The notes under the pieces were generated by a model, which saw nothing but the letters and a program-made list of their open reading frames with translations, made no database searches and had not been told where the DNA came from. Shown here piece by piece: positions 6,163 through 64,000 of a DNA stretch of 64,000 nucleotides (positions are counted from its first letter, which is position 1; each line of letters begins with the position of its first letter). Location: positions 1-64,000 of IMG/VR virus record IMGVR_UViG_3300045988_089718. One strand, written 5' to 3'. Source of the stretch: a virus. Made by a program: the position numbers and the translations under genes.

Positions 6163-6167
6163 TACTT

Positions 6168-6342: not shown

Positions 6343-6348
6343 TTTATT

Positions 6349-6436: not shown

Positions 6437-6442
6437 CTATAT

Positions 6443-6513: not shown

Positions 6514-6520
6514 CAACTTA

Positions 6521-6598: not shown

Positions 6599-6796
6599 CT
6601 AAGCCTGACAATTTTAATAGGTACTAAACAACTCTCAGTAACTCTATTAAATAGCGTAATTACCTTAAAATTAATCATTTGAGTTAAAAAGAGAAAGAAC
6701 GTTAGATAGCTGAGGACAATGGAATAGTTTAAATATAACCAGTGAAAATCGCCTATTATTTAAATAGATTATTAACACATTAATTATAGATAAATT

Positions 6797-7186: not shown

Positions 7187-7191
7187 GAGAT

Positions 7192-7551
7192 ATGGAAATA
7201 AAAACAATACAAATTGATTCTGATACATTTTTAGTGTTTAAGGGACGAGAGTACAGACAGATAAACATAGAAGACATTGTATGTTTAAAAACATCTGGTA
7301 AATATAGTACTATAATAGATGTTCATGGCTATAAAATTGATGTGTGTTGTTCATTAAAAGAAATTACACATGTTTTATGTATTGATTTTATTCTTGCAAC
7401 ACAAGGATTTTTGATAAATCATAAATACATATCTGAGATAATTAGAAAGAATGATGAAAATAATACATATATCTTAAAATTAAATGATGATATTCATACA
7501 ACTGTGGATATTTCACTACATATAGCTACAAACATGTTAAAACAATTGTAA
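7192..7551 (+). CDS. hypothetical protein (119 aa)
   Basis: ORF embedded in the tRNA cluster. Confidence 0.5.
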   Translation: MEIKTIQIDSDTFLVFKGREYRQINIEDIVCLKTSGKYSTIIDVHGYKIDVCCSLKEITHVLCIDFILATQGFLINHKYISEIIRKNDENNTYILKLNDDIHTTVDISLHIATNMLKQL

Positions 7552-7590
7552 TACCATAATAGTTTAAGGTTTATAAAATAAATATTGTTG

Positions 7591-7613
7591 GCAACTAGCA
7601 GATAATTAGTTGC
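7591..7613 (+). repeat. Palindrome GCAACTA-GCAGATAAT-TAGTTGC upstream of tRNA-Leu; copy 2 of the 4274 element
   Basis: Near-identical roughly 30-nt block with the same position relative to a tRNA start. Confidence 0.6.
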
Positions 7614-7618
7614 TATCT

Positions 7619-7704
7619 GGCTCAGTGGTGGAATTGGTAGACACGAGGGACTTAAAATCCCTTGACCAGGAATGGTCGTGCAAGTTCGATTCTTGTCTGA
7701 GCTA
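7619..7704 (+). tRNA. tRNA-Leu (anticodon TAA), type II
   Basis: D loop TGGTGGAATTGGTAGACAC typical of tRNA-Leu; anticodon stem AGGGA/TCCCT with loop CTTAAAA; acceptor GGCTCAG/CTGAGCT (G1-U72). Confidence 0.85.
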
Positions 7705-7719
7705 CAATAATAAACTAAC

Positions 7720-24025: not shown

Positions 24026-24355
24026 GGGGATGTTTTGGTTTTGAACTTCGAGGAGATAAGGAACACAGCAAGACAGTTGGAGAGACAACAAAACAATAAT
24101 CGCTAGAGTTATTAATATGACTCCTGCTTATCAGGCTGCTGCCTGAGAAGCCGAGCAGCACTTGCTTAGGAACAGAAAGGTGCACTATTTTCCATTTCTT
24201 TTGTAAGTTCTCTGTATACTTTAGGAACAGAGTGGTGGAAGTTGGCAATGTTAATCTTGTCAACCCTAATAGACAAGGATAGTCTCTAAAACCTATGCTG
24301 TAAGAATGTTTTGATGCAAATCGGAGTGACAGGGGTTCGACTCCCCTCATCTCCA
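24026..24355 (+). ncRNA. ssrA: tmRNA-like gene (about 330 nt)
   Basis: 5' GGGGATG pairs with 3' CATCTCC, giving a tRNA-Ala-like acceptor with G3:U70. 3' T arm GGGG-TTCGACT-CCCC. Locally GC-rich with no ORF (the minus ORF 24003-24356 is spurious). Candidate tag frame GCT AGA GTT ... TAT CAG GCT GCT GCC TGA (ARVINMTPAYQAAA). Confidence 0.6.
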
Positions 24356-24445
24356 CTAGTTCATAGAACTGTTTTTATTATTTGTTTTTAATCCCTGGGC
24401 TATTATTATAGTTCAGGGATTTTTGTTTAATTTTAACTGTTAATT

Positions 24446-26638: not shown

Positions 26639-28192
26639 ATGGAACATTTAGTTCTTATTGGTGTTATCGCAGTTGCTATTATTGTACTACTTGTTATTAT
26701 TGCTATAATGTATGTTAAGGCTCCTCCTTCGATGGCATACATTCTTTCAGGTTTTCGTAAAGAACCACGAGTACTTATCGGTGGTGGTGGAGTAAAAATT
26801 CCTGTACTTGAACGATTGGATAAAGTATATCTTGGTCAAGTAACAGTTGATGTTAAAACTTCACAACCAGTTCCTACTCATGATTTCTTGGATGTAATGG
26901 TAGATGCCGTATGTAAAATTAGGGTAAAACCTGATACAGATGGTACTAGACTTGCAGCTAAGAACTTCTTGAATATGAATCCTGCTCAGATTGCTGCTCA
27001 GGTAAAAGATTCTTTGGAAGGTAATATGCGTGAAGTGGTAGGCTCTCTTGACTTAATTAAAATTAACACTGATAGAGATGCATTCTCTGATGAAATTCAG
27101 AAGAAGGCAGCTCCTGATATGGCTAAGTTAGGTCTTGAGATTTTGTCCTGCAATATCCAGAATATTACTGATGAGAAGGGATTGATCCGTGATTTGGGTG
27201 CTGATAATACAGCAGCTATTCAGAAGAATGCTAAGATTACTCGCGCTAATGCTGATAGAGATGTAGCTAAGGCTCAGGCTGAAGCTGACAATGAGGCTAA
27301 TGAAGCACGAGTAAAGGCTGATACCATTATTGCTGAACGTAATAATGAATTGGCTATTAAGAGAGCTGAACTGAAGAGATTGTCTGATATTAAGAAGGCT
27401 GAATCTGATGCTGCATATAAAATTCAGCAGCAGGAGCAGCAGAAGACTATTAATATCAAGACTGTAGATGCTGATATTGAGAAGACTCGTAAGGAGCAAA
27501 CCTTATCTGAGGAGAAGATTAAGATTAAGCAGAATGAGTATCTTGCAGATGTAAATGCTAAGGCTGATGCTGATAAGTATCAGACAGAGATTGATGCTCA
27601 GGCTGCTTTGGAGAAGCAGAAACGTGAAGCTGAAGCTGAAGCTTATAAGGCAGAGCAGGTAGCTAAAGCTGTAAAGGCTAAGGCTGAAGCTAGTCGTTAT
27701 TCTCAAGAGCAGGAGGCTGCAGGTATTCGTGCTAAAGGTGAAGCTGAAGCATATGCTACTCAGCAGACCTTGACTGCGGAAGCTGAGGGTACTAAGGCTA
27801 AACTTTTAGCAGAAGCTGAAGGTGTGAAGGCTAAGGGTCTTGCAGAAGCTGAAGCTATGCAGAAGAAGGCTGAAGCATACAGTAAGTATGGTTCTATTGC
27901 TGTAATTGACATGCTTTCTAAACTTAATGAGAAAGTTCTTCCTGATATGGCTAAGTATATTGCTGAGCCTATGAGTAAGATTGGCAGTATGACAGTTTAT
28001 GGAACTAATGGTTCTGAGGCTTCTGGTATTTCTGGTAATGTACCTGCTATTATCAAGCAGACTCGTGACATTGTAAAAGATGCCACAGGTGTAGATATGG
28101 CAGACATTATGAAGGCTAACACCATTGATGCTAAGGTTAACAAGAATGTTAACGTTAATGGCGATGTAGAAAACACCAACGTAAATGTGTAA
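26639..28192 (+). CDS. SPFH/flotillin-like membrane protein (517 aa)
   Basis: N-terminal TM helix, then YVKAPPSMAYILSGFRKEPRVLIGGGGVKIPVLERLDKVYLGQVTVDVKT...DAVCKIRV typical of FloT/YqiK band-7 domains, followed by a long Ala/Glu/Lys coiled-coil repeat region. Codon usage shifts to GC-richer codons (GCT GAA GCT repeats). Confidence 0.7.
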   Translation: MEHLVLIGVIAVAIIVLLVIIAIMYVKAPPSMAYILSGFRKEPRVLIGGGGVKIPVLERLDKVYLGQVTVDVKTSQPVPTHDFLDVMVDAVCKIRVKPDTDGTRLAAKNFLNMNPAQIAAQVKDSLEGNMREVVGSLDLIKINTDRDAFSDEIQKKAAPDMAKLGLEILSCNIQNITDEKGLIRDLGADNTAAIQKNAKITRANADRDVAKAQAEADNEANEARVKADTIIAERNNELAIKRAELKRLSDIKKAESDAAYKIQQQEQQKTINIKTVDADIEKTRKEQTLSEEKIKIKQNEYLADVNAKADADKYQTEIDAQAALEKQKREAEAEAYKAEQVAKAVKAKAEASRYSQEQEAAGIRAKGEAEAYATQQTLTAEAEGTKAKLLAEAEGVKAKGLAEAEAMQKKAEAYSKYGSIAVIDMLSKLNEKVLPDMAKYIAEPMSKIGSMTVYGTNGSEASGISGNVPAIIKQTRDIVKDATGVDMADIMKANTIDAKVNKNVNVNGDVENTNVNV

Positions 28193-31492: not shown

Positions 31493-31503
31493 TCAGGACT
31501 TTC

Positions 31504-31576
31504 GCCTCGGTAGTTCAGTGGTTAGAACGCGAAACTGTTAATTTCGATGTCGGGAGTTCGAATCTCTCCTAGACAA
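31504..31576 (+). tRNA. tRNA-Asn-like (anticodon GTT) with non-complementary acceptor stem
   Basis: D arm, anticodon arm (CGAAA-CTGTTAA-TTTCG) and T arm align closely to bacterial tRNA-Asn, but the 5' acceptor GCCTCGG does not pair with the 3' CTAGACA. Confidence 0.5.
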
Positions 31577-31598
31577 CTAATTAATAAAAATAAATAAT

Positions 31599-32075
31599 AT
31601 GAAAGAGACTTTTAATTATCAATCAGATGCAAACTTTTATGATAAAAAGGATTTTATTATAGCAGTCTTAAAAAGAAAAATAAATAGTTTTAAAGAGTAT
31701 GATGCTGAAAGAAAAAAGCATTATGCTGGACTAGAACAAAAAATTGGAGAATTAGAATCTTATATAGATGAATTAGAGAATGGACTTGGTATAGAATCTT
31801 TAAATAATAAAATTCAATCTTTAGAAAATAAAATTGAAAAACAAAAACTTAAAATTAAAGAATTGCAAGCTAAAGTTAATATATCTTTGTTTGATGATAC
31901 TAAGTCTTTTGAAGAATTAGAATCTATAGCAAATAATTTAAAGAACTTTAATAGTATAAGATTAGCTAATAAAGGTCTTAGAAAACAGCTTAAGGATAAT
32001 AAAAATACTATATCTGATTTAATCTATAAATTAACACAAGCTAAACTTAAAATAAAACAATTAACTGGAGAGTAA
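31599..32075 (+). CDS. hypothetical coiled-coil protein (158 aa)
   Basis: ORF. Confidence 0.5.
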   Translation: MKETFNYQSDANFYDKKDFIIAVLKRKINSFKEYDAERKKHYAGLEQKIGELESYIDELENGLGIESLNNKIQSLENKIEKQKLKIKELQAKVNISLFDDTKSFEELESIANNLKNFNSIRLANKGLRKQLKDNKNTISDLIYKLTQAKLKIKQLTGE

Positions 32076-32085
32076 TCTCCAATTT

Positions 32086-32160
32086 GGGCTCGTAGTTCAG
32101 TTGGCTAGAACGCTACTTCTGCAAGGTAGATGTCGTGGGTTCGAGTCCCACCGTGGTCCA
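32086..32160 (+). tRNA. tRNA-Ala-like (anticodon TGC) with imperfect acceptor stem
   Basis: D arm TAGTTCAGTTGGCTAGAAC; anticodon stem CTACT/GGTAG with loop TCTGCAA (C at position 33); T arm GTGGG-TTCGAGT-CCCAC. Acceptor GGGCTCG with 3' GTGGTCC gives G1-C, G2-C, G3-U and then mismatches. Confidence 0.5.
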
Positions 32161-32178
32161 CTATTAAATTAAATATTT

Positions 32179-32517
32179 ATGAAAATAATTATTGATACAG
32201 ACAATTTAGAAACATTAAAGTATAAAACTGAAGATGTTCCTATTTTAATAAAGACTTTCCAACAATTAATAAATAAATTAATGTATGAAGTAATAGGAAA
32301 TTATTATTCTGTAGACGATGTTCCTGAGGATGCTCCAAAATGGGTAAAAGAAGAACTACTTAATGTAGGAAAAACCTGTTACGTGGATGGATATATGAAT
32401 AAAGAATATGTTTTTAAAGGTATTCAAGAAACATTTGAGGATTATTATTATATATTAGAAAATAATAATAAACAAATTTCTTATTCTTCATGCGTTGGAA
32501 AGATATCTTATAAATAA
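32179..32517 (+). CDS. hypothetical protein (112 aa)
   Basis: ORF. Confidence 0.5.
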   Translation: MKIIIDTDNLETLKYKTEDVPILIKTFQQLINKLMYEVIGNYYSVDDVPEDAPKWVKEELLNVGKTCYVDGYMNKEYVFKGIQETFEDYYYILENNNKQISYSSCVGKISYK

Positions 32518-32519
32518 AT

Positions 32520-32597
32520 GCGAGATTAGTGTAGCTGAAGGCGCATATCTGGCTTCCAACCAGAAGGCTTGCGTGGGTTTGATTCCCACATCTCGCA
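32520..32597 (+). tRNA. tRNA-Gly (anticodon TCC)
   Basis: Acceptor GCGAGAT/ATCTCGC; anticodon stem TCTGG/CCAGA with loop CTTCCAA; T arm GTGGG-TTTGATT-CCCAC. Confidence 0.85.
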
Positions 32598-33028
32598 CTA
32601 TAACAAAGCTCTAGAATACTAGTCACAGGAGCAACGTAACTTATAGGGTGCCTCTCAACGATGCATACTCGCCTATTAGGTGTCGTAGAACCTACGAACT
32701 GGAATGGTTCGACGTTTTTTGCATTCCTACAGAATCCTAAATAATAAAAACAGAGACCATAAGATTGTCTCTGACAGGGGCGATTTACCTGGGATTCTTA
32801 ATTTTTTAAATTCTCCTCCTAGATACTTTATAAGTTAAACTTTAAATTTGATTTATTATGATGAAAATTTTAAAAAGAACTTTAAAAGCCATTAAGAAGG
32901 GTTGGACTTGGTATGCTAATCAGTATTGTAGATTATACATGCCTCCAATGATTTAATCTTATTATTTAATTTGTAAGTACCAAAGGGGTACTTACTGATG
33001 TTGAGTCGGGCAATAAGCTCGACTTTTT

Positions 33029-34620: not shown

Positions 34621-34803
34621 GTGTTTATTGATTTAACATTAGACAATGACAGTATTAATAGAAGATATTTGATAGCCGTAGATGATATTTCCTTAATAGA
34701 AGAAGTTGGTGAAAGCTCTTACGTTATGTTAAAGAGTGGGGGCTGCTTATCTGTGAAGGAATCTATTGATTATATAAAATCTCTATTAGACAATGTCAAA
34801 TGA
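34621..34803 (+). CDS. hypothetical protein (60 aa)
   Basis: ORF. Confidence 0.35.
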   Translation: MFIDLTLDNDSINRRYLIAVDDISLIEEVGESSYVMLKSGGCLSVKESIDYIKSLLDNVK

Positions 34804-35017
34804 AAAAGTAAAAATTGATTTTGGATGTGGAACTTCGCTTATTCCGGGGTCTTTCCTGATTTTATTGATAGCTAAAGTTCTTTTACATTCAGATATTTCG
34901 TGGTTAATTGTTTTTAGCCCACTCTTAATAGGAATAGGACTCATAATCATACTCTGTATTATATGGCTAATTTTATATTGTATACCTGATGGAAGATCTA
35001 ACAGATATTATAAGTGA
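34793..35017 (+). CDS. small membrane protein (74 aa)
   Basis: Two hydrophobic helices. Confidence 0.4.
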   Translation: MSNEKVKIDFGCGTSLIPGSFLILLIAKVLLHSDISWLIVFSPLLIGIGLIIILCIIWLILYCIPDGRSNRYYK

Positions 35018-35053
35018 TCTAGATGATTATTGGAATGATCTAGAAGCAGACTA

Positions 35054-35236
35054 TTGGAATTCTTTAGAAAAAGAAGGATTATGAATATAGATATATTTGA
35101 GGTAAAAGCAGATGAAGCTTGGAAATCATTAATTGCAGAATCTCCATACCTACTAATGTCTAGTAGAGAGTTAGAAAAATGTAAAAACTTTTTTATCTTA
35201 GGATATTATACAGCAATTAGAGATTCTCACTTATGA
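35054..35236 (+). CDS. hypothetical protein (60 aa)
   Basis: ORF. Confidence 0.35.
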   Translation: MEFFRKRRIMNIDIFEVKADEAWKSLIAESPYLLMSSRELEKCKNFFILGYYTAIRDSHL

Positions 35237-35460
35237 ATTACCAAAAAGCTAGTCAAGTATCTCTATTAGTAGAATTAATTAAATCTTCTGAAATAGTGTC
35301 TAAAGAATACTCTGAAGCACATATACCAGAAGATTTAATTTCTAATATAAAGATACTATGTATGAAAGATAGTAGTTTTAGAAGAAGTTTCTATGGTATA
35401 ATGCAGAAACTTGGAAAGAAATATTCAGATATTTATATAAATAAATTATCAGGGTTATGA
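35233..35460 (+). CDS. hypothetical protein (75 aa)
   Basis: ORF. Confidence 0.4.
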   Translation: MNYQKASQVSLLVELIKSSEIVSKEYSEAHIPEDLISNIKILCMKDSSFRRSFYGIMQKLGKKYSDIYINKLSGL

Positions 35461-35960
35461 ACTTAGTTTGGTTAAAATTAACAAAGCGAATTTTAACTCA
35501 TAAGTATTATGTTGCTAAATATTGCTTTCAAATAGGATTATATTGGCAAGGTATTACTCATGATTTGTCTAAATTTAGTTTTACAGAATTCTCAAGAGCT
35601 ATTAAGTACTGGGATGATAAAATGAGCTCCTTAGCGAATGAGTGTCGAATATTAGGATATAGTCAAACATTCCTTCATCATAGAGGAAGAAATCCTCATC
35701 ACTATGAATATTGGATACATTCCTTAGATAATGGAGGGATTCCTGCTAAAATGCCTAGAAAATACGTTCTAGAACTTATATGTGATTATTTAGCAGCGGC
35801 TAAAACATATGGAGCTGACCCTAGAAGGGAATATACATGGTGGCTTAAACAACAGCCTCATATGAAAATCCACAAAAAAACTAAGAGTTATATAACTGAA
35901 GTGTTTTATAAATATAGTATAGGTTTAACATTAAAAGAATCAATTAATGGAAATTATTAA
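35457..35960 (+). CDS. hypothetical His-rich protein (167 aa) overlapping the NAMPT-family gene start
   Basis: ORF overlaps the next gene by 14 nt; motif HHRGRNPHHYEYW; function unknown. Confidence 0.5.
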   Translation: MNLVWLKLTKRILTHKYYVAKYCFQIGLYWQGITHDLSKFSFTEFSRAIKYWDDKMSSLANECRILGYSQTFLHHRGRNPHHYEYWIHSLDNGGIPAKMPRKYVLELICDYLAAAKTYGADPRREYTWWLKQQPHMKIHKKTKSYITEVFYKYSIGLTLKESINGNY

Positions 35961-37500
35961 TGCAACTGATGGCTATAAGCTTGGTCATCATCGTATGTAC
36001 CCAGAGGGTACACAAATGGTCTATAGTAACTGGACTCCTAGAAGTAATCGTTACTTCCCAGAAGCCACAGAAGGCTCTGTAGTATTTGGTATTCAGTACT
36101 TTGTTAAGAAGTATTTGATCGAGGAATTTAACAAATGGTTTGCTCTTCCTAAGGAAGAAGCTATCAAGCAATTTGCTTATCGTGTAGGTAACTTTGTAGA
36201 CCTTAATCAGGTTGGAACAAAGCATATTGAGGAACTTTATGATTTAGGATATCTTCCTATCGAAATTAAAGCTCTTCCTGAGGGTTCCATCTGTCCTATA
36301 AGAGTACCTATGATGACTATTAAGAATACTCTTCCAAACTTCTTCTGGTTGACTAATTATTTGGAGACTTTGATTAGCTGTACTCTATGGCTTCCTTGTA
36401 CTTCTGCAACAAGTGCTCGTCTTTATAAGAAGAGACTTATGGAACATGCTAGAAAGACTGGATTCCCAGAAGATGTAAATCTAGGTTTCGCCTGTCATGA
36501 TTTTTCTATGAGAGGTATGGCAGGACTTGATGCTGCTATTATTTCTGGTATGGCTCATATGACTTCATTCTGTGGTAGTGAAACAATTCCTGCTATTGAA
36601 GCAGTAGAGCATTATTACAATGCAGATGTTACTAAAGAACTTGTAGCTGCGACTGTTCCAGCAACTGAACACTCCGTAATGTGTGCAGGAGGTGAAAATG
36701 ATGAGATTGAAACATATCGTCGTCTTATTAATGACCTATATCCAACGGGTATTATCTCAATAGTATCTGATACTTGGGATTTCTGGCAGGTAGTTGAAAA
36801 GTTTTTACCTAAGCTTAAGGCAGATATTATGAAACGTGATGGTCGAGTAGTAATTCGCCCTGATAGTGGTGATCCAGTAGATATTATTTGTGGTCTTCGT
36901 ACAAATCCTCACTATCATACTGCCATGAAAGAAGGTAAGTACTACTGTGATTTTAATCCATTTATGGATGATGATGAAAGTCATTATGTAGAAGTATCTG
37001 AAGGTCAGTATTATGGAGCATATTATATGCTAGGTAAAATCTTTGGATGGAATACTACTGTAAACGACTATCGTTATCCAAGTACCAAGGTAGGATTGCT
37101 TTATGGAGATTCTATCACTCTGGAACGTCAGCGTGATATTTATGCTCGATTAGAGAATGCTCATATGGCAGCTTGTAATCTTGTTCTTGGTATTGGTTCT
37201 TATACTTATCAGTTTAAGTCTCGTGATTCTTTGGGATTCGCAGTTAAAGCAACTGCTTGTATAATTAATGGAAGACTTATAGAAATCTATAAGCATCCAA
37301 AAACTGACGATGGAACAAAGAACTCTCTCAAAGGTCTTATTAGAGTTGAAGAAGAGAATGGCAAGTATGTCGCTTATGACCAGCAGACTAAGGATGCAGA
37401 ACTGCAAGGTTGTTTTAAAACAGTCTTTATAGATGAAGAATTAGTAAGAGAATATTCTCTTTCTGAAATTCGTGAACGTGTAAATTCAACATTAATATGA
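35947..37500 (+). CDS. nadV: Nicotinamide phosphoribosyltransferase family protein (NadV/Nampt, or Namat-type ADPR-PP:nicotinamide transferase), 517 aa
   Basis: Strong similarity by eye to human NAMPT blocks: ATDGYKLGHHRMYPEGTQMVYSNW ([24 protein letters not shown]), LPIEIKALPEGS (LPIEIKAVPEGF), FFWLTNYLETL (CYWLTNWIETI), HDFSMRG, SIVSDTWDFW (SVVSDSYDIY), VVIRPDSGDPVD (LIIRPDSGNPLD). Confidence 0.9.
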   Translation: MEIINATDGYKLGHHRMYPEGTQMVYSNWTPRSNRYFPEATEGSVVFGIQYFVKKYLIEEFNKWFALPKEEAIKQFAYRVGNFVDLNQVGTKHIEELYDLGYLPIEIKALPEGSICPIRVPMMTIKNTLPNFFWLTNYLETLISCTLWLPCTSATSARLYKKRLMEHARKTGFPEDVNLGFACHDFSMRGMAGLDAAIISGMAHMTSFCGSETIPAIEAVEHYYNADVTKELVAATVPATEHSVMCAGGENDEIETYRRLINDLYPTGIISIVSDTWDFWQVVEKFLPKLKADIMKRDGRVVIRPDSGDPVDIICGLRTNPHYHTAMKEGKYYCDFNPFMDDDESHYVEVSEGQYYGAYYMLGKIFGWNTTVNDYRYPSTKVGLLYGDSITLERQRDIYARLENAHMAACNLVLGIGSYTYQFKSRDSLGFAVKATACIINGRLIEIYKHPKTDDGTKNSLKGLIRVEEENGKYVAYDQQTKDAELQGCFKTVFIDEELVREYSLSEIRERVNSTLI

Positions 37501-37991
37501 TAAAAATTGTTGATGGAGATTTACTCCAATCAAATTTACCTCTTATAGCTCATCAAACTAATTGTTTGGGAGTAATGGGAGCAGGTATAGCTAAAGCTAT
37601 TAAAAATAAATGGAATAGTGTGTATATACAATACGCTAATTTTTGTAAACTTCTTAAATATTCTAAAGAATTATTAGGAAAATGTCAAGTATGTATAACA
37701 GGAGATGAACCTATTAATCTCGTAGCTAATTTATTTGGAGAATATTCTTTTACTGAATCAGTAGCTCCTTATGAAAATAGACATACTGATTATGATGCTC
37801 TTAAAAAAGCTTTATTAGATTTAAAAGACTTTTGTGAAGATAACGAGATTACAGAGATAGGTATTCCTTATAAATTAGGATATGGATTAGCAGGAGGAGA
37901 TTGGGATGGAGTAGTTTATCCTATGCTACAAGAACTTTTTGCTAATGATACAACAATGACTCTTTATATTTATAAATTATGCAACAATTAA
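37497..37991 (+). CDS. Macro-domain protein (Poa1p/TARG1-like ADP-ribose-processing hydrolase), 164 aa
   Basis: LIAHQTNCLGVMGAGIAKAI matches the H..N..G.MGAGIA signature of Poa1p/TARG1-type macro domains. ATG overlaps the nadV stop (ATGA); the stop overlaps the next gene. Confidence 0.65.
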   Translation: MIKIVDGDLLQSNLPLIAHQTNCLGVMGAGIAKAIKNKWNSVYIQYANFCKLLKYSKELLGKCQVCITGDEPINLVANLFGEYSFTESVAPYENRHTDYDALKKALLDLKDFCEDNEITEIGIPYKLGYGLAGGDWDGVVYPMLQELFANDTTMTLYIYKLCNN

Positions 37992-38788
37992 ATTTAGTAC
38001 ATCTAGAAGATAGTGATATTAAATATTCTATCTCTAGATTTCCTGATGGGGAAGTTCAAATTTCCTTAGAAGAATTCAGTCATAAGGAACAAGTATTAGT
38101 AAAATGTAGAGTTACTAATGCTGAAGACTTATTTATACTTATGCAAGTTTTAGATATTCTTGATAGACATGAAGTTCTATATAAGTTAAATATCTATTAC
38201 TTAATGAGTATGAGAATGGACCGAGTAATGGATTTCAATAGACCATTCACTTTAAAAATAGTCTTAAATATATTAAAAAATTGTAATGCAGAGACTATTG
38301 AAATTTTAGAACCTCATTCTGATGTTTATTATGATCCTAGATTCGGAGTTAAATTTATGCCTCTCTATGGTGAAAAGAATCCATCTAATAATACTTGGAA
38401 AGAATTTCAATTAGTTTTCCCAGATGCCGGAGCTGTAAAGAGAAATGAATTCAGATATAATCGCGTAGGAATTACTTGTAGTAAAGTTCGAGATTTAACT
38501 ACTGGGAAAATCTTAGAGATTAAAATAGATAATCCTGAAAGTATACAGGATAAATCTCTGTTAATTCTTGATGATTTATGTGATGGTGGTGGAACCTTCT
38601 GTGGTATTGCTAAAGCATTTAATGCTTTAGGTATTCCTAAAGAGCGTTTAAATATTGCAGTTACTCATATGGTAAATCCTAATGGTATAAAGAATCTGTC
38701 AGAAAACTTTAACCACGTATGGTTTACTAATTCTTACAAAGATTGGGATAATCTTCCTGAGAACGTTACAATGCTTAATGTTATCTGA
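37979..38788 (+). CDS. Ribose-phosphate pyrophosphokinase family protein (Prs, or Adps-type ADP-ribose pyrophosphokinase), 269 aa
   Basis: N-terminus SRFPDGEVQISLEE resembles the Prs RFSDGEVSVQINE block; PRPP/phosphoribosyl-binding loop LLILDDLCDGGGTF; shorter than canonical Prs (about 315 aa). Confidence 0.7.
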   Translation: MQQLNLVHLEDSDIKYSISRFPDGEVQISLEEFSHKEQVLVKCRVTNAEDLFILMQVLDILDRHEVLYKLNIYYLMSMRMDRVMDFNRPFTLKIVLNILKNCNAETIEILEPHSDVYYDPRFGVKFMPLYGEKNPSNNTWKEFQLVFPDAGAVKRNEFRYNRVGITCSKVRDLTTGKILEIKIDNPESIQDKSLLILDDLCDGGGTFCGIAKAFNALGIPKERLNIAVTHMVNPNGIKNLSENFNHVWFTNSYKDWDNLPENVTMLNVI

Positions 38789-38929
38789 TGTATGTTTTAG
38801 GACTTATTATAACTATTATTTTGGTAATAATTATAATTGATCCAAGATTAGATATTACAGATAACCAATGCATATTATGGTATTCAAATTTCGAAGGAGA
38901 ACGTTGTTATTTAATACTTTGGAATAAAA

Positions 38930-39256
38930 ATGATCATTATAAATAAAAATGAATTAGACCCTAATTTAATTCATGACATTAATTTAGAGTTAGAAGCGTT
39001 ATTTACAAATAATAGAACTTGGGAAATTAGTTCTAGTACTGGAGATTTAGATGATGCTTCAGATGTACGAATTGTTATTAAAGGTGAGGGACACTGTTAT
39101 ATTTCCACAATAGAGGATACTGAAGAATACGTCAGAGATTTATTGAATGGTTATAGAAAATCTCATAATTTTGATACTTTTTGTATGTCTACAACGTATT
39201 TTGATCCTGAAAAGAATGGAATAGTATTTGAATATGCAGATTACATATCTTTATAA
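38930..39256 (+). CDS. hypothetical protein (108 aa)
   Basis: ORF between the prs-like gene and RNase H. Confidence 0.5.
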   Translation: MIIINKNELDPNLIHDINLELEALFTNNRTWEISSSTGDLDDASDVRIVIKGEGHCYISTIEDTEEYVRDLLNGYRKSHNFDTFCMSTTYFDPEKNGIVFEYADYISL

Positions 39257-39258
39257 CT

Positions 39259-39672
39259 ATGTTACAGATTTATACTGATGGTGCTTATAAATCTTCTATT
39301 GACCAAGGAGGTATTGGAATAGTATGGATGAAGGATGATGAAGTATTTAAAAAGTACTCCAAAGGCTTTAAACATACTACTAATAATAAAATGGAATTAA
39401 TTGCTATGCTATGTGCTTTTAAGTCCATTAAAACTCCAATGGATGAAGTAGAATTTATAAGTGATAGTCAATATGTATTAGGATGTCTTACTAAAGGTTG
39501 GAAGAAAAAGAAGAATGTAGAACTCTGGAATATCTTAGATAAAGAATATGAAAGAGTTAAATCTTTAATAAAAAATATTAAATTTACCCATGTTAGAGGA
39601 CATCAAGATTGTTTTGGTAATAATTTAGCGGATGAATTAGCTAGTAATGCTAGCTTAGAATTATTAGAGTAA
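39259..39672 (+). CDS. rnhA: Ribonuclease HI
   Basis: YTDGAYKSS..GGIGIV, MELIAMLCAF, DSQYV, HVRGHQDCFGNNLADELA: the RNase H catalytic DEDD layout. Confidence 0.85.
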   Translation: MLQIYTDGAYKSSIDQGGIGIVWMKDDEVFKKYSKGFKHTTNNKMELIAMLCAFKSIKTPMDEVEFISDSQYVLGCLTKGWKKKKNVELWNILDKEYERVKSLIKNIKFTHVRGHQDCFGNNLADELASNASLELLE

Positions 39673-39890
39673 TGTATTTAGTATTATCAATAATAATTGT
39701 TTTTGCTGGTGCAGCTATTTATATTGGATCTGCATTTGCTGTTATAAACAGGTGGACTAGTAATAACGTCCCTATGAATATAGTATCAATATTGATATTA
39801 TTATGTCCAATTATAAATACATTATTAGCACTATATTATCTGTACCCTGAGTTAACAGAAACTTTAAGTAAAATTTTTAAAAATAATTAA
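39672..39890 (+). CDS. small membrane protein (72 aa)
   Basis: Two hydrophobic helices; start overlaps the rnhA stop. Confidence 0.4.
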   Translation: MYLVLSIIIVFAGAAIYIGSAFAVINRWTSNNVPMNIVSILILLCPIINTLLALYYLYPELTETLSKIFKNN

Positions 39891-40349
39891 TTATGGCTAA
39901 AGAAATTGTAAAAGCAACGGTAGACACTATTACTATTTATCGTACTACTGGTGGTAAAATTGCGGTAAAACGTAGTGACCGATTAAAACCAAGTAGATAT
40001 TTTGATGATATCAAAGATGCTCGTAAGTATACTGAGGAGCACTTTGAGGGTAATGTCTCAGAGTCTCTCTAAGACGTTTTCATTTCTAGAGTGATAAATT
40101 GTTCATGATTCTAAATTTAGAAGTTTGTAGGCTATTCTAGATGTGTCTATAACTAAATTATGGTATTTTACCTAGATAATTTTAATATTACACAGATGAT
40201 TAATTTTCTTTTAATTTTCAATTCTAGTTAAAATGAAGTATAAGGCAAAGCTTGAAAGACTTCGTCAGAAGCAGGTATGGTGGGATAAGCTCCCTCAGAC
40301 AGTAAAAAATGCATCAACAAGACCTGGCGGTATTGGATCAAAGTAATCT

Positions 40350-57224: not shown

Positions 57225-59453
57225 ATGTTATTTATGGTAATAAAAAGAGACGGAATTAAAGAAGAGTTTAACAGAAACAAAATTAGAGATGCTGTACTAA
57301 AAGCTTTTGGAGTTACCCAAAATTCTAGTAAAACAATAGATGAAGATATTTACAGAGCAGTTACTGAGATAACTAATTCTGTAGTAGAGACTGAAGATCA
57401 ATCTATTGAGGATATTCAAGACCAAATTGAAGAACTTTTAATGGATTTAGGATATCACGACGTAGCTAAAAAATATATTCTATATCGTAAAGAACGTGAG
57501 GATATTAGAAATCATGCTACTAGGGATATTAAATTTATTCATAATTTTGTAAAATCTGATAATACTGCTAATGCTACTATTGACGACAATAGTAATGTTG
57601 GAACTAAAGGTATTGGAGTATTAAACGCTGAAATACATAAAGTCGATAATAAACTCACTAATACAGAATGGTGGGAAAGTTTTGTAAAGAAGAGAGATCC
57701 TAACTTTAATATAAAAGTTATGAGAAATGATTTTAAAACTATTTTATATCCTCATGACTCATCTTCTCAAGTAGGAGAACCATATTGTATGGCAGCTTCT
57801 ATGTATCCTTTCTTGTTGTCTGGATTAGAGAAATTAGGAGGCAAATCAGCTGTTCCAAAGAATCTTGATTCATTCTGTGGTATTTATGTAAATTTAAACT
57901 TTGCATTAGCTTCTGAAATTAAAGGAGCAGTAGCTACTCCTGAGTTCCTAATGTATATGGATTATTTCTGTAGAAAAGAATGGGGAAATAATTATTATCT
58001 CAAACCAAGTGTAAAAATAACTACAGACTATTGTATAAAACAAAAAACTATTGGTAGTCAAATTGATCAGTATTTCCAACAGGTAACTTATTCTATTAAT
58101 CAAATAGCAGGAGCTAGAGGAATGCAGTCTCCATTTACAAATTTTTCATTCTTCGATAAATATTTCTTTGAAGGTATGTTTGGAGAATTTGTATTTCCAG
58201 ATGGAACAAAGCCAGAATGGAACTCTACTAATTGGCTACAAAAACGTTATTTACATTGGCTAAATCAAGAAAGATTAAAATGTATTTTAACATTCCCTGT
58301 ATGTAGCTATGCTTGTTTAACTGATAAGGAAGGTAATTTTAAAGATTTAGACACTTTCCATTATATATGCAATGAATATGCTCAAGGAAATTCTTTCTTT
58401 ACTTACATGTCTCGTAGCGTAGATAGTTTAAGCTCATGTTGTCGCTTACAGAATGCAGTACAAGAAAATACGTTTAATACTACTAATGGTCAGATAGGAA
58501 TAATGACTGGTAGTAAGAATGTTATTACCCTTGATTTAAATAGAATTATTCAGGATTGGCAGCATACTTGGTCTGATTATAAAGACCATATTGATGTTGA
58601 TACTAATAGATGTTGCTTCCCAGTAGATTGGATTACACATAAAGACTTCCAAGAAGGAATTAAGAAATATATAGAAAATATTCTTGAAAGAGTTTATTTA
58701 TATCAGTATGCTTACAATGACTTAATGCATTGGTGTAAAGACCATCATTTATATGCTGCTTATGATGCTGGTTTTATTAATCTTGATAAACAGTACTTAA
58801 CTATTGGAATTAATGGTTTAAATCAGGCTGCTGAATACTTAGGAATGGAATGTAATAATAATATTTATTATAAGACATTCTGTAGATTGATATTCAGTAC
58901 TATAAAAGAACAGAATAAGAAACATAAAACTAAAACAGCTCAATTTAATACTGAACAAGTGCCAGCAGAATCTGCTTCAGTAAAACTCTATAATAGAGAT
59001 AAAGCTGATGGCTATTGGGTTCCTACAGATACTAATCTGTATGCTAGTTATATATTTAAACCTAATGATACACATATAAGTATACTTGATAAAATTATAC
59101 TTCATAGTTCTGAGTTCGCTGCTGATGAATTAGATGGAGGTTCTGCTTGCCATCTTAATTTATCTGAACATTTGAGTCAGAAACAATATGAGTATTTACT
59201 TAAATTTATGGCTAAAGTAGGTTGTAAATATGTTACTTTTAATATTCCTAATTGTGAATGTGAAGAGTGTCATTTTATAGCAAAACAACCATTCAGTAAA
59301 TGTCCTAAATGCGGCAGTACTCATGTAAGTCTATGGGATAGAATTATCGGTTATCTTACAAAAATTTCTAACTGGAGTGCTGCTAGACGATTAGAAGGTA
59401 GTACTAGAAGTAGAAAAAATGGATTAGAAATTAATATAGAATTAGCACAATGA
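57225..59453 (+). CDS. nrdD: Anaerobic (class III) ribonucleoside-triphosphate reductase
   Basis: N-terminal ATP-cone-like VIKRDGIKEEFNRNKI; C-terminal Zn ribbon CECEECHF...CPKCGS, then glycyl-radical motif RIIGYL; 742 aa. Confidence 0.85.
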   Translation: MLFMVIKRDGIKEEFNRNKIRDAVLKAFGVTQNSSKTIDEDIYRAVTEITNSVVETEDQSIEDIQDQIEELLMDLGYHDVAKKYILYRKEREDIRNHATRDIKFIHNFVKSDNTANATIDDNSNVGTKGIGVLNAEIHKVDNKLTNTEWWESFVKKRDPNFNIKVMRNDFKTILYPHDSSSQVGEPYCMAASMYPFLLSGLEKLGGKSAVPKNLDSFCGIYVNLNFALASEIKGAVATPEFLMYMDYFCRKEWGNNYYLKPSVKITTDYCIKQKTIGSQIDQYFQQVTYSINQIAGARGMQSPFTNFSFFDKYFFEGMFGEFVFPDGTKPEWNSTNWLQKRYLHWLNQERLKCILTFPVCSYACLTDKEGNFKDLDTFHYICNEYAQGNSFFTYMSRSVDSLSSCCRLQNAVQENTFNTTNGQIGIMTGSKNVITLDLNRIIQDWQHTWSDYKDHIDVDTNRCCFPVDWITHKDFQEGIKKYIENILERVYLYQYAYNDLMHWCKDHHLYAAYDAGFINLDKQYLTIGINGLNQAAEYLGMECNNNIYYKTFCRLIFSTIKEQNKKHKTKTAQFNTEQVPAESASVKLYNRDKADGYWVPTDTNLYASYIFKPNDTHISILDKIILHSSEFAADELDGGSACHLNLSEHLSQKQYEYLLKFMAKVGCKYVTFNIPNCECEECHFIAKQPFSKCPKCGSTHVSLWDRIIGYLTKISNWSAARRLEGSTRSRKNGLEINIELAQ

Positions 59454-62999: not shown

Positions 63000-64000
63000 C
63001 ATAGGTTTCCTTGGAAATCTTTTCTAAAATATGTATACTTAAGTGTTAATAATTAATACTTAAGCTATGCATCAATTTAATCACAATTATTTTAAAACTA
63101 TTGATACAGAAGAAAAAGCTTATATCCTTGGTTTTCTGTATGCTGATGGCTATAACTCTGATAAGCAAGTAGTTATAGCCCAATTAGAACAAGATGTTGA
63201 TATTTTAGAAAAGATAAATAAAGCACTAGATGCAGATAATCAAATAAAAAGAAAATTACAGAGTACAAATAATAAAACTGTATGTCAATTATACTATAGT
63301 AGTATAGATATGTGTGCAGACTTAACTAATCTTGGATGTTTTAGAAATAAATCTTTAGCATGTACTTTTCCAACATTTCTAGATAAATCTCTAATTCGAC
63401 ATTTCATTAGAGGTTATTTTGATGGTGATGGATGTGTTTGGATAGGTAAAAGAAAAATAATGACTGTTAAAGATAAGACGAGACCAAGTGGATTTCGGGA
63501 GCGCATAGTTCAAAATGTTAAATTTACAATAACTGGTAATATGACATTTATTAATAGTTTACAAGATGAGTTAGTACAAATGTTGGGATTTAAGAAAACT
63601 AAACTTAATTTTAGCAAGGCTAAAAATGCTAATAATAGCACTTGTGATAAAGTTTGTACTATGGAGTATTCTGGCAGAAAACAGATGCAATCTTTTTATA
63701 ATTATATGTATGAAGGAGCTTCTATTTGGGGAAATAGAAAAAAATTAAAATTTGAAGAAATTTGTGCGTTTGAAGAGAAATCTTCAAAGGACACCTAGTT
63801 AATTGCTGGAACGCCTGAGATGGTAATCAGCAGCCAAGCCTCTAATATTGAGGAAGGTTCATCGACTATCCCTGAAATGGGAGTAGAATCAAGTGATTCG
63901 AAATGCTAGGCTCTTAACGACACGCAAGTGGGCGAAGATGAAGATATAGTCAGTTCTGTAGTTAAATGAAGCTACAGCGATAAAATTGGGACTAGAGTAA
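63000..64000 (+). mobile_element. Probable group I intron carrying a LAGLIDADG homing endonuclease, inserted in the metallophosphoesterase gene (3' boundary beyond the window)
   Basis: Gene interrupted at a catalytic motif; the intervening ORF is a homing endonuclease; 63799-64000 is non-coding, locally GC-rich and hairpin-rich. Confidence 0.55.
63067..63798 (+). CDS. LAGLIDADG homing endonuclease (two-motif, 243 aa)
   Basis: Motif 1 ILGFLYADGY and motif 2 IRGYFDGDGCVW. Confidence 0.8.
   Translation: MHQFNHNYFKTIDTEEKAYILGFLYADGYNSDKQVVIAQLEQDVDILEKINKALDADNQIKRKLQSTNNKTVCQLYYSSIDMCADLTNLGCFRNKSLACTFPTFLDKSLIRHFIRGYFDGDGCVWIGKRKIMTVKDKTRPSGFRERIVQNVKFTITGNMTFINSLQDELVQMLGFKKTKLNFSKAKNANNSTCDKVCTMEYSGRKQMQSFYNYMYEGASIWGNRKKLKFEEICAFEEKSSKDT

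What the first reader, a model, noticed from the sequence alone, without database searches (positions are those of the whole stretch)
35457..39672. NAMPT-family + macro domain + Prs-family operon: NARP1-like NAD+ reconstitution module with an embedded ADP-ribose-processing macro domain
Three translationally coupled genes (ATGA and 13-nt overlaps) encode a NAMPT-family enzyme (clear block-by-block similarity to NAMPT), a Poa1p/TARG1-type macro domain (H..N..G.MGAGIA) and a short (269 aa) ribose-phosphate-pyrophosphokinase-family protein. In phages, a Prs homolog (Adps) plus a NAMPT homolog (Namat) make up the NARP1 pathway, which rebuilds NAD+ from ADP-ribose and nicotinamide to defeat NAD+-depleting defences (Thoeris, DSR, SIR2-HerA and similar), as described by Osterman et al. 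2024. I am not aware of a macro domain inserted between these two genes being described. By inference, it may convert modified ADP-ribose species (ADPR-1-double-prime-phosphate, O-acyl-ADPR, cyclic ADPR signals) into free ADPR, widening the range of immune NADase products that can be recycled, or it may remove ADP-ribosyl marks. The His-rich protein just upstream (35457-35960) overlaps the operon start and may be a fourth component. RNase H follows.
Basis: partly seen in the sequence, partly recalled or inferred. Interest (0 to 1): 0.85.

Follow-up and report, generated by a model that had tools for sequence, protein, structure and literature searches.

The report
Phage NAD+ rebuilding operon with phosphatase
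This gut-phage operon encodes three enzymes that most likely rebuild the cell's NAD+ from the fragments left by bacterial anti-phage defences; the same three-enzyme system (NARP1-AP) was tested experimentally in a January 2026 preprint, so this is a new example of a known system.

Summary
Window 35947-38788 holds three overlapping genes: a NAMPT-family enzyme, a macro-domain protein and a short Prs-like protein. Each is homologous to a component of the Adps-Adpp-Namat operon of Vibrio phage Gary. Osterman et al. (bioRxiv 10.64898/2026.01.28.702374) showed that operon rebuilds NAD+ and overcomes the aRES defence, with the macro protein (Adpp) converting ADPR-1''-phosphate to ADPR.

Evidence for each protein:
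- **NAMPT homologue:** it scores 473 bits against the solved SPbetaL1 Namat, versus about 200 bits against Nampt entries. It carries the Namat adenine-clamp signature (GSYTYQFKSRD, Arg35).
- **Prs-like protein:** it fails every curated PRPP-synthetase cut-off, as the validated Gary Adps does. It keeps the essential Lys (K169) and an Adps-type PP loop.
- **Macro protein:** it keeps the essential His (H19) and the ADPR-binding loops. It lacks the DarG/TARG1 catalytic residues.

The upstream DUF5662 gene is probably a conserved neighbour, not a fourth component.

Side observations in related gut phages: a HAD-type phosphatase sits in the macro gene's position, and mobile insertions and deletions disrupt Namat. 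No biochemistry was possible.

The parts
35947..37500 (+). Namat (nicotinamide ADP-ribose transferase, NAMPT family), 517 aa. Catalytic His242 is at 36670-36672. The adenine-clamp helix motif GSYTYQFKSRD is at 37195-37227. The clamp-loop residue is Arg35.
   Evidence: phrog_448 4e-177. Best solved relatives are 9W5X/9W5W, the SPbetaL1 Namat, at 473 bits; Nampt entries score about 200 bits. 41% identity, E 8e-119, to Gary Namat. Motif definition; residues read.
37497..37991 (+). Adpp (macro-domain ADPR-1''-phosphate phosphatase), 164 aa. His19 is at 37551-37553. Loops are GVMGAGIA and GYGLAGGDW.
   Evidence: Pfam Macro 4.9e-7. phrog_335 'phosphatase' 2e-35, the same PHROG as the validated Gary Adpp. 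37% identity over the full length, E 1e-25, to Gary gp137. All invariant columns of an alignment of NARP1-associated and stand-alone phage macro proteins are kept. Gary H24A was constructed, and inactivating any of the three genes abolished anti-defence.
37979..38788 (+). Adps (ADP-ribose pyrophosphokinase, PRPS-like), 269 aa. Lys169 is at 38483-38485. The PP loop DDLCDGGGTFCG is at 38570-38605.
   Evidence: phrog_619 7e-61, the same PHROG as Gary Adps. It is below every NCBIfam PRPS cut-off, like Gary Adps. 29% identity, E 2e-18, to Gary Adps. Invariant R79, H113, D149, K169, D198, D199, D202 and F207 across 8 Adps proteins match the functional residues of the ICP1 Adps structure.
35457..35960 (+). 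DUF5662 protein, 167 aa, His-rich with an HD dipeptide. It is an adjacent gene overlapping the Namat start by 14 nt. It is probably a conserved backbone neighbour and not a component of the module.
38788..39256 (+). Two small ORFs (52 aa at 38788-38946, 108 aa at 38930-39256) between Adps and RNase H. Function unknown. They travel with the cassette in the same phage species.
   Evidence: No Pfam or PHROG hit for the 108-aa ORF. Conserved at 90-100% in all close relatives, including those with Namat deleted, and not detected in other clades.
39259..39672 (+). RNase H, 137 aa. A flanking backbone gene, not part of the module.
   Evidence: Pfam RNase_H 1.3e-24, phrog_531 4e-37. In related phages it lies upstream of DUF5662 whether or not NARP1 is present.

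Best explanation
The three genes at 35947-38788 are a NARP1-AP module (NAD+ reconstitution pathway 1 with associated phosphatase) carried by an uncultured human-gut phage of about 180 kb.

The inferred mechanism has three steps:
1. NAD+-depleting defences cleave NAD+ to nicotinamide plus ADPR. RES-type NAD+ phosphorylases such as aRES instead give nicotinamide plus ADPR-1''-phosphate. The macro protein Adpp removes the 1''-phosphate to give ADPR.
2. The PRPS-like Adps transfers the beta,gamma-pyrophosphate of ATP to the 1'' position of ADPR, giving ADPR-PP.
3. The NAMPT-like Namat replaces the pyrophosphate with nicotinamide, giving NAD+ directly.

What is shown here: homology, conserved functional residues and gene arrangement. 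What is inferred from experiments on homologues (phages Gary, SPbetaL1 and ICP1): the chemistry and the anti-defence role.
For: Published system:
- The Adps-Adpp-Namat operon of Vibrio phage Gary overrides aRES and Nezha defence.
- Purified Adpp converts ADPR-1P to ADPR.
- 15% of NARP1 phages carry such a macro gene.

Window versus Gary proteins:
- Namat 41% identity, E 8e-119.
- Adpp 37% identity, E 1e-25, full length.
- Adps 29% identity, E 2e-18.
- The PHROGs are identical: 448, 335 and 619.
- The Gary residues targeted by mutation (Adps K192, Namat H243, Adpp H24) correspond to window K169, H242 and H19. Inactivating any of the three Gary genes abolished anti-defence.

Namat versus Nampt:
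- 473 bits to the SPbetaL1 Namat structures 9W5X/9W5W; about 200 bits to Nampt entries.
- The Namat-specific motif GS-X-Phi-X-Phi-X-Phi-TRD, with aromatics at positions 3 and 7, is present as GSYTYQFKSRD.
- The clamp-loop Arg40 corresponds to window R35.

Adps versus PRPS:
- TIGR01251 scores 71 against a cut-off of 113. PRPS equivalog models score 25-60 against cut-offs of 296-536.
- The validated Gary Adps gives the same pattern.
- The loop is DDLCDGGGT where B. subtilis PRPS has DDIIDTAGT.
- The functional residues of ICP1 Adps (R87, H121, D161, K185, D212, D213, D216, F221) are conserved.
- The protein is short (269 aa), consistent with the reported loss of the PRPS C-terminal regulatory helices.

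Selection and genomic behaviour:
- All three genes are under purifying selection among close relatives: dN/dS is about 0.06 for Namat, 0.12-0.21 for Adps and 0.19-0.59 for Adpp.
- The cassette is present or absent as a unit against a conserved backbone in related phages.
Against: - No biochemistry or infection data exist for these proteins. Identity to the validated enzymes is only 29-41%.
- Some contact residues differ. The Namat motif has Lys at Phi3 and Ser for Thr. The equivalents of ICP1 Adps Phe92 and Phe223 are Met84 and Gly209.
- The window macro protein is slightly more similar (40-42%) to stand-alone macro proteins of Geobacillus and Bacillus phages. Those proteins are not next to NARP1 genes. 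The family is therefore not exclusive to NARP1, and substrate specificity cannot be read from sequence.
- The host is unknown, as is whether it carries an aRES-type system. aRES candidates are listed in Bacteroides.
- Close relatives often carry a deleted or interrupted Namat. The module is therefore dispensable in some settings.
Confidence: 0.82

Rival explanations
1. Classic PRPP-dependent salvage. The Prs-like protein makes PRPP, the NAMPT homologue makes NMN from PRPP and nicotinamide (NadV type, as in NARP2), and the macro gene is an unrelated passenger.
For: Curated NCBIfam NF006629 names the 517-aa protein a phosphoribosyltransferase above its cut-off (507 vs 405). Namat enzymes keep residual PRPP activity in vitro.
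Against: - The validated Gary Namat also passes NF006629, so that model does not discriminate.
- The window protein is much closer to the solved Namat than to the Nampt entries, and it carries the adenine clamp.
- The Prs-like protein fails all PRPS cut-offs and lacks the DT.GT loop.
- No NMN adenylyltransferase, which would be needed to finish NAD+ from NMN, is among the flanking genes scanned.
Confidence: 0.04
2. The macro protein acts on something other than ADPR-1''-phosphate. It might reverse DNA or protein ADP-ribosylation (a DarG/TARG1-like anti-DarT activity). Or it might deacylate O-acyl-ADPR from Sir2-type enzymes. It would then sit in the operon only because its product is ADPR, or by chance.
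For: - The closest solved sequences are DarG (5M3I, 5e-8), BT1257, SCO6735-like 5E3B and TARG1. Poa1p is weaker (1e-4).
- There is an NCBIfam DarG N-terminal match, 6.7e-15.
- The nearest phage homologues by identity are not NARP1-linked.
- Its dN/dS is higher than that of its neighbours.
Against: - The DarG score is 55 against a cut-off of 250, and the validated Gary Adpp gives the same weak DarG hit.
- The Lys-Lys of the DarG/TARG1 'TKK' motif is Glu82-Tyr83 here. In the Adpp-profile alignment, TARG1 Asp125 falls on the small-residue column (Ala132 here).
- The gene is embedded with 4-nt and 13-nt overlaps between Namat and Adps. In the Gary operon the macro gene likewise lies between Adps and Namat, in the reverse gene order, and there the ADPR-1P phosphatase activity was measured.
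Confidence: 0.1
3. A four-component system. DUF5662 would be an HD-type phosphohydrolase that also feeds or tidies the pathway, for example by opening ADPR-cyclic-phosphate or a cyclic ADPR-type signal. RyDEP does this kind of job in mycobacteriophage NARP1 operons.
For: - It overlaps the Namat start by 14 nt.
- It is directly upstream of Namat in several diverged gut phages (L005, L012, L025, L026, L029). In L030 it lies inside the operon, between a HAD remnant and Adps.
- There is precedent for accessory feeder enzymes inside NARP1 operons.
Against: - It is present without any NARP1 gene within 6 kb in L008-L011, L027, L028, L031, L032 and in all more distant homologues L035-L045.
- NARP1 in crAss-like phages and in Gary has no DUF5662.
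- It co-occurs with RNase H at least as consistently as with NARP1, which suggests backbone synteny.
- Overlapping gene starts are the rule across this whole region.
- The HD fold assignment is weak: Foldseek finds nothing significant, and the His-rich loop is modelled at pLDDT below 50.
Confidence: 0.12

Closest known systems
NARP1-AP of Vibrio phage Gary (Adps - Adpp gp137 - Namat; Osterman et al., bioRxiv 10.64898/2026.01.28.702374)
   Same: The same three protein families (PHROGs 619, 335, 448), with the macro gene lying between the other two. The three residues targeted by mutation there are conserved. The macro domain is Poa1p/TARG1-class.
   Different: - Gene order is reversed: Namat-Adpp-Adps here, Adps-Adpp-Namat in Gary.
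- Identity is 29-41%.
- The carrier is an uncultured, low-GC (about 30%) human-gut phage. Searches of the preprint's Table S1 gave no hit for MT835492, Bacteroides, Flavobacterium, Bacillus or Escherichia; the part read lists Vibrio, Pseudomonas, Acinetobacter and Pseudoalteromonas phages.
- The genes overlap here. In Gary a 68-nt spacer precedes Namat.
NARP1 of Bacillus phage SPbetaL1 / Escherichia phage Bas63 / Vibrio phage ICP1 (Adps + Namat; Osterman et al. 2024; PMC12774641; PMC13586617)
   Same: Namat is closest to the SPbetaL1 Namat crystal structures and has the selectivity-clamp motif. Adps keeps the ICP1 catalytic Lys, the acceptor residues and an Adps-type PP loop.
   Different: Those systems have two genes and no phosphatase. 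According to they cannot use ADPR-1''-phosphate.
Yeast Poa1p, human TARG1 and bacterial DarG macro domains
   Same: The same macro-domain class. The N-terminal H/N-x-x-N-C...GxMGxGIA loop and the G-x-G-L-x-G-G loop are shared. Poa1p is the reference ADPR-1''-P phosphatase cited for Adpp.
   Different: The catalytic Lys of DarG/TARG1 and the Asp of TARG1 are absent. Sequence similarity to Poa1p is weak (E 1e-4 for the single sequence, 1e-13 for the profile). BT1257 of Bacteroides thetaiotaomicron is the best solved match to the Adpp profile (2.6e-24).
RyDEP inside mycobacteriophage NARP1 operons (bioRxiv 10.64898/2026.05.28.727677)
   Same: The same logic: an accessory enzyme embedded in a NARP1 operon converts a non-substrate NAD+ derivative into linear ADPR for Adps.
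   Different: RyDEP is a RyR-domain glycosidase acting on 2'/3'cADPR. It is unrelated in fold and chemistry to the macro phosphatase here.

Membership tests
NARP1 (Adps + Namat) | Adps and Namat homologues encoded in close proximity (the operational definition used by Osterman et al.) | tested here: met
   The genes at 35947-37500 and 37979-38788 are separated only by the macro gene. Definition.
NARP1 (Adps + Namat) | The NAMPT-family member belongs to the Namat group, not to the PRPP-using Nampt group | tested here: met
   473 bits to SPbetaL1 Namat 9W5X/9W5W; about 200 bits to Nampt entries. 41% identity to the validated Gary Namat. No tree was built.
NARP1 (Adps + Namat) | Namat selectivity clamp: motif GS-X-Phi-X-Phi-X-Phi-TRD with aromatics at positions 3 and 7, plus the clamp-loop Arg (SPbetaL1 R40) | tested here: met
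   GSYTYQFKSRD at aa 417-427 has Tyr at position 3 and Phe at position 7. Deviations: Phi3 is Lys and Thr is replaced by Ser. R35 aligns with R40.
NARP1 (Adps + Namat) | Conserved Nampt-like catalytic core, including the catalytic His | tested here: met
   H242 aligns with Gary H243, which was mutated in that study. D8, Y10 and the GDS and GS residues align with the SPbetaL1 NAD+-contact residues.
NARP1 (Adps + Namat) | Adps: PRPS-like fold that is not a canonical PRPS | tested here: met
   TIGR01251 scores 71 against a cut-off of 113. All PRPS equivalogs score far below their cut-offs. The validated Gary Adps behaves identically. phrog_619 is shared with Gary Adps.
NARP1 (Adps + Namat) | Adps catalytic Lys (ICP1 K185 / Gary K192) and acceptor residues R87, H121, D161, D212, D213, D216 | tested here: met
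   K169, R79, H113, D149, D198, D199 and D202 are invariant in an 8-sequence Adps alignment. ICP1 numbers were mapped through Gary with an offset of 7, because the ICP1 sequence itself was not retrieved.
NARP1 (Adps + Namat) | Adps donor-site PP loop and aromatic contacts (ICP1 C215-S220, F221, F223, F92) | tested here: inconclusive
   The loop DDLCDGGGTF keeps C, D and F221 (F207 here), with Ser replaced by Thr. The F223 equivalent is Gly209 and the F92 equivalent is Met84.
NARP1 (Adps + Namat) | ADPR + ATP gives ADPR-PP; ADPR-PP + nicotinamide gives NAD+ | not testable with these tools
   Requires purified proteins and LC-MS.
NARP1-AP (with Adpp) | Macro-domain gene (PF01661/PF14519/PF20016) within two genes of the NARP1 pair | tested here: met
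   PF01661 at 4.9e-7, above the gathering score. The gene lies between Namat and Adps. Criterion.
NARP1-AP (with Adpp) | Homology to the experimentally validated Adpp (Gary gp137), including the His mutated there (H24) | tested here: met
   37% identity over 98% of the length, E 1e-25. H19 aligns with H24 and is invariant in 13 phage macro proteins.
NARP1-AP (with Adpp) | Intact ADPR-binding loops of the macro fold | tested here: met
   N22, GVMGAGIA and GYGLAGGDW are conserved. The profile matches solved macro domains at up to 2.6e-24.
NARP1-AP (with Adpp) | ADPR-1''-phosphate phosphatase activity and rescue from aRES | not testable with these tools
   Needs enzyme assays and plaque assays.
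Canonical ribose-phosphate pyrophosphokinase (PRPS) | Passes the curated PRPS models and has the R5P 5-phosphate loop D-T-x-G-T | tested here: not met
   Below all NCBIfam cut-offs. The loop is DGGGT where B. subtilis PRPS has DTAGT.
DarG / TARG1 ADP-ribosyl glycohydrolases | Catalytic Lys of the TKK motif (and Asp125 in TARG1); DarG model score | tested here: not met
   The aligned positions are Glu82-Tyr83 and Ala132. The DarG model scores 55 against a cut-off of 250, and only for the N-terminal 50 residues.
NARP2 (Nampt + Nmnat) | An NMN adenylyltransferase partner next to a PRPP-preferring Nampt | tested here: not met
   None of the genes scanned at 35233-39672 hits an NMNAT or Nudix family. 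The rest of the phage genome was not scanned.
HD-domain phosphohydrolases (for DUF5662 only) | HD fold with an H...HD...H...D metal site | tested here: inconclusive

The most novel reading that the evidence does not exclude
In this clade of human-gut phages, NARP1 may be a modular platform with interchangeable feeder enzymes. The position between Namat and Adps holds either the macro phosphatase Adpp (this window) or an unrelated HAD-type phosphatase (L012, L026, L029, L030, crAss-like DAC15). The flanking DUF5662 protein could be a further, undescribed HD-like hydrolase that widens the range of NAD+-derived products that can be recycled. If so, the window would encode a four-enzyme variant of NARP1-AP. 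The HAD/macro swap would mark different host NADase chemistries in Bacteroidales.
Probability: 0.12. Interest if true: 0.6.

Novelty: new member of a known kind. Interest (0 to 1): 0.3.

Why it matters
It has since been shown experimentally in another phage, so this locus adds no new principle.

It does extend NARP1-AP from phages of marine and clinical Proteobacteria to an abundant uncultured human-gut phage lineage. That implies RES-type NAD+ phosphorylase defences also matter in gut anaerobes.

The comparative side observations are leads for finding further accessory enzymes in the NAD+ arms race. They are the HAD phosphatase in the same position in crAss-like and related phages, the recurrent linkage with DUF5662, and the mobile insertions and deletions hitting Namat.

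Tried and rejected
- **Classic Prs + NadV salvage:** rejected on the PRPS cut-offs, the loop sequence and the Namat clamp.
- **DarG/TARG1-type de-ADP-ribosylase:** considered less likely, because the catalytic Lys and Asp are absent and the validated Adpp gives the same weak DarG hit.
- **NARP3 (PnuC + NadR):** different proteins.
- **DUF5662 as an obligatory fourth component:** rejected on its distribution. A facultative link is not excluded.
- **ICP1 Adps sequence:** I looked for it to map structural residues directly. The first 50 kb of NC_015157 did not contain it, and the ICP1 structure is not in the PDB copy. I mapped residues through Gary instead.
- **Group I intron in the Namat insertions of relatives:** Rfam found none in L033.
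- **Literature:** a search for DUF5662 found nothing. A search for a HAD phosphatase in NARP1 operons was uninformative, and the NARP1-AP preprint does not mention one.
- **Fold searches:** the afdb50 library was unavailable. Foldseek against the PDB gave no significant match for DUF5662.

Full report
**1. Observation**

| Coordinates | Length | Family |
|---|---|---|
| 35457-35960 | 167 aa | DUF5662, His-rich |
| 35947-37500 | 517 aa | NAMPT family |
| 37497-37991 | 164 aa | Macro domain |
| 37979-38788 | 269 aa | Prs-like |
| 38788-38946 | 52 aa | No family (not scanned) |
| 38930-39256 | 108 aa | No family hit |
| 39259-39672 | 137 aa | RNase H |

The junction sequences confirm a 14-nt overlap for DUF5662/NAMPT, an ATGA overlap for NAMPT/macro and a 13-nt overlap for macro/Prs-like.

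HMM matches leave no doubt about the families:
- NAMPT family: phrog_448 4e-177; NF006629 3e-152.
- Macro: Pfam Macro 4.9e-7; phrog_335 ('phosphatase') 2e-35.
- Prs-like: phrog_619 7e-61.
- RNase H: 1.3e-24.
- DUF5662: 1.2e-31.

One correction applies. Overlapping starts and stops run through the whole string of + strand genes from about 34793 to 40072. Coupling is therefore a property of this phage genome, not a marker of operon boundaries.

**2. What it is**

A literature search found that this architecture was published in January 2026 by Osterman et al. (bioRxiv 10.64898/2026.01.28.702374). Their findings are:
- RES-domain defence proteins (aRES) phosphorolyse NAD+ to nicotinamide plus ADPR-1''-phosphate.
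- The two-gene NARP1 pathway cannot use ADPR-1''-phosphate.
- 15% of NARP1-carrying phages have a macro-domain gene within two genes of Adps/Namat.
- The Adps-macro-Namat operon of Vibrio phage Gary overrides aRES and also Nezha.
- Purified macro protein (Adpp) converts ADPR-1P to ADPR.
- Inactivating any of the three genes abolishes the effect.
- The system is named NARP1-AP.

I fetched the Gary operon (L001) and compared it directly with the window proteins:

| Protein | Identity to Gary | E-value |
|---|---|---|
| Namat | 41% | 8e-119 |
| Adpp | 37% over the whole length | 1e-25 |
| Adps | 29% | 2e-18 |

The Gary proteins fall in the same three PHROGs as the window proteins. The residues mutated in that study are listed in its primer table: Adps K192A, Namat H243A and Adpp H24A. 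They align with window K169, H242 and H19.

**3. Namat or Nampt?**

The best solved relatives of the 517-aa protein are 9W5X and 9W5W at 473 bits. These are the SPbetaL1 Namat structures. Entries deposited as Nampt score about 200 bits.

The structural paper (PMC12774641) defines a Namat-specific adenine 'selectivity clamp'. [quoted passage not shown] The window protein has R35 at the aligned position and GSYTYQFKSRD at residues 417-427. Both aromatics are kept. The two deviations are Lys at Phi3 and Ser for Thr.

The curated NCBIfam model NF006629 passes for both the window protein and the validated Gary Namat. That model therefore cannot separate the two activities.

**4. Adps or PRPS?**

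The 269-aa protein is below the cut-off of every NCBIfam PRPP-synthetase model. TIGR01251 scores 71 against 113, and the equivalog models score 25-60 against 296-536. The validated Gary Adps and the DAC15 homologue behave the same way.

Where B. subtilis PRPS has the ribose-5-phosphate loop DDIIDTAGT, the window protein has DDLCDGGGT.

The ICP1 Adps structures (PMC13586617) identify the functional residues R87, H121, D161, K185, D212/D213/D216, the PP loop C215-S220, and F221. Mapped through Gary with an offset of 7, these are window R79, H113, D149, K169, D198/D199/D202, C201-T206 and F207. All are invariant in an alignment of eight Adps homologues.

The equivalents of F92 and F223 are not conserved (Met84, Gly209). 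The short length fits the reported loss of the PRPS C-terminal regulatory helices.

**5. The macro protein**

An alignment with the Gary Adpp, eight NARP1-associated macro proteins from the preprint's Table S1, a close relative and two stand-alone phage macro proteins shows that the window protein keeps every invariant column: H19, N22, G30, A32, P124, G128, G133 and W136.

A profile of that alignment matches solved macro domains of the TARG1/DarG/Poa1p class:
- BT1257 of Bacteroides thetaiotaomicron, 2.6e-24.
- SCO6735-like 5E3B, 6e-22.
- DarG, 2e-20.
- TARG1, 1e-17.
- Poa1p, 1.5e-13.

The DarG/TARG1 catalytic Lys of the 'TKK' motif aligns with Glu82-Tyr83. In the profile alignment TARG1 Asp125 falls on the small-residue column, which is Ala132 here. 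A DNA or protein de-ADP-ribosylase role is therefore less likely.

One caveat: the nearest phage homologues by identity are Geobacillus virus E3 at 42% and Bacillus phage Thrax5 at 40%. They are not flanked by NARP1 genes. The family is broader than NARP1-AP, and the substrate is inferred from context plus the Gary experiments.

**6. Genomic setting**

- The window resembles a 181-kb IMG/VR contig from a human-gut data set (L013). Flanking genes are 99-100% identical and Adpp is 94% identical.
- The closest GenBank record is MT835492 from human faeces.
- GC content is about 30% and all genes are on one strand.
- The window also carries 14 tRNA genes, a tmRNA, a group I intron, an anaerobic ribonucleotide reductase and a flotillin-like gene.
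- At the nucleotide level, the nearest Namat genes outside this group are in crAss-like Bacteroides phages and in Prevotella Lak phages. This suggests, but does not prove, a Bacteroidales host.
- The preprint's list of putative aRES systems includes Bacteroides.
- Searches of the preprint's Table S1 of NARP1-AP phages gave no hit for this record or for Bacteroides, Flavobacterium, Bacillus or Escherichia.
- All three genes are under purifying selection among close relatives. dN/dS is about 0.06 for Namat, 0.12-0.21 for Adps and 0.19-0.59 for Adpp.

**7. DUF5662**

The evidence is as follows.
- Across 45 loci, DUF5662 lies directly upstream of Namat in the window's species and in several diverged relatives (L005, L012, L025, L026, L029).
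- In L030 it lies inside the operon, next to Adps.
- It also occurs with no NARP1 gene within 6 kb in L008-L011, L027, L028, L031, L032 and in all distant homologues L035-L045.
- NARP1 in Gary and in crAss-like phages lacks it.
- It keeps company with RNase H at least as regularly as with NARP1.

I therefore treat it as a conserved backbone neighbour of unknown function, possibly HD-like. There is a small residual chance of a facultative functional link.

**8. Mechanism and confidence**

Shown here: homology, diagnostic residues, arrangement, and selective constraint. Inferred from experiments on homologues:
1. Adpp removes the 1''-phosphate from ADPR-1''-P.
2. Adps pyrophosphorylates ADPR using ATP.
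3. Namat couples ADPR-PP to nicotinamide to give NAD+.

Together these steps would restore NAD+ after attack by ADPR-producing NADases or by RES-type phosphorylases. I put 0.82 on this reading. The rivals are classic PRPP salvage (0.04), a different macro substrate (0.10) and a four-component variant with DUF5662 (0.12, not exclusive of the main reading).

**9. Novelty and score**

The kind of system is known and experimentally characterised. This locus is a new member in an uncultured gut phage, with the reverse gene order and fully overlapping genes. Interest is 0.3.

The side observations that might repay follow-up are:
- The HAD-type phosphatase that replaces the macro gene in the same position in related gut phages and in Bacteroides phage DAC15. 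The NARP1-AP preprint does not mention it.
- The two recurrent insertion sites in Namat, next to the catalytic His and the clamp motif.
- The in-frame 1858-bp deletion between 7-bp repeats in MT835492, which removes Namat but keeps Adpp and Adps.

Noticed in passing
L012:8098-8568, L026:8569-9000, L029:~8389-8811, L030:5580-5993, L006 (Bacteroides phage DAC15):6421-6849: In related gut phages and a crAss-like Bacteroides phage, the gene between Namat and Adps is not a macro domain. It is a 142-156 aa HAD-type protein (FDFDNT, LYT[AS], KKP, LLDDRAG; phrog_1238, labelled 'phosphoheptose isomerase'). This is a non-homologous candidate phosphatase in the same position as Adpp. The NARP1-AP preprint does not mention it.
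   Followed up: partly
window 35546-37410 versus L004 (MT835492) 12090-12096: The closest GenBank relative has an in-frame 1858-bp deletion between two GCAAGGT repeats (35546-35552 and 37404-37410). It fuses DUF5662 aa 1-32 to the last 29 aa of Namat. Namat is lost while Adpp and Adps remain. Other relatives carry different deletions: L044 35601-38411, L034 35615-35702, L022 36442-36510.
   Followed up: yes
window 36677-36727 and 37235-37240; L015, L020, L023, L024, L033, L034: Six close relatives have Namat interrupted at two recurrent sites. One is just after the catalytic His242 (inserts of 257-777 bp, with an HNH-like ORF at L015 7668-7856). The other is just after the clamp motif (inserts of 222-1225 bp). 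In L015 the gene reads as two 280-aa ORFs. Rfam found no group I intron in L033.
   Followed up: partly
L030:3895-7331: The order here is Namat, a truncated HAD ORF, DUF5662, Adps. DUF5662 therefore sits inside the NARP1 operon in this phage.
   Followed up: partly
window 37497-37991 versus L013-L021: Adpp diverges faster than its neighbours among close relatives. Examples are 94% against 99-100% in L013, and 82% against 96% and 87% in L021. dN/dS is 0.19-0.59, compared with about 0.06 for Namat.
   Followed up: partly
L005 (MT836666):6401-8386: A 661-aa ORF joins an AAA/ClpX-like ATPase N-terminal region to a Namat whose C-terminus is cut short. DUF5662 lies upstream and Adps downstream, with only remnants of the HAD gene.
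   Followed up: no
window 24026-24358: A phage-encoded tmRNA (Rfam RF00023, 65.5 bits; ARAGORN tag ARVINMTPAYQAAA).
   Followed up: no
window 63744-63971: A group I catalytic intron (RF00028, 71.6 bits) at the end of the window, overlapping the end of the 63067-63798 ORF.
   Followed up: no
window 4301-11674 and 31503-32598: Two clusters of tRNA genes, 14 in all by Rfam. They include one with an odd anticodon loop at 4890-4971.
   Followed up: no
window 26639-28192 and 57225-59453: An SPFH/Band 7 plus flotillin-domain protein (517 aa), and an anaerobic ribonucleotide reductase NrdD with an ATP cone. The latter fits an anaerobic host.
   Followed up: no
L002 (Geobacillus virus E3) 4001-4453; L003 (Bacillus phage Thrax5) 4001-4468: The macro proteins most similar to the window Adpp (40-42% identity) are stand-alone genes with no Adps or Namat within 4 kb. 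The Adpp-like family is therefore not restricted to NARP1 operons.
   Followed up: partly
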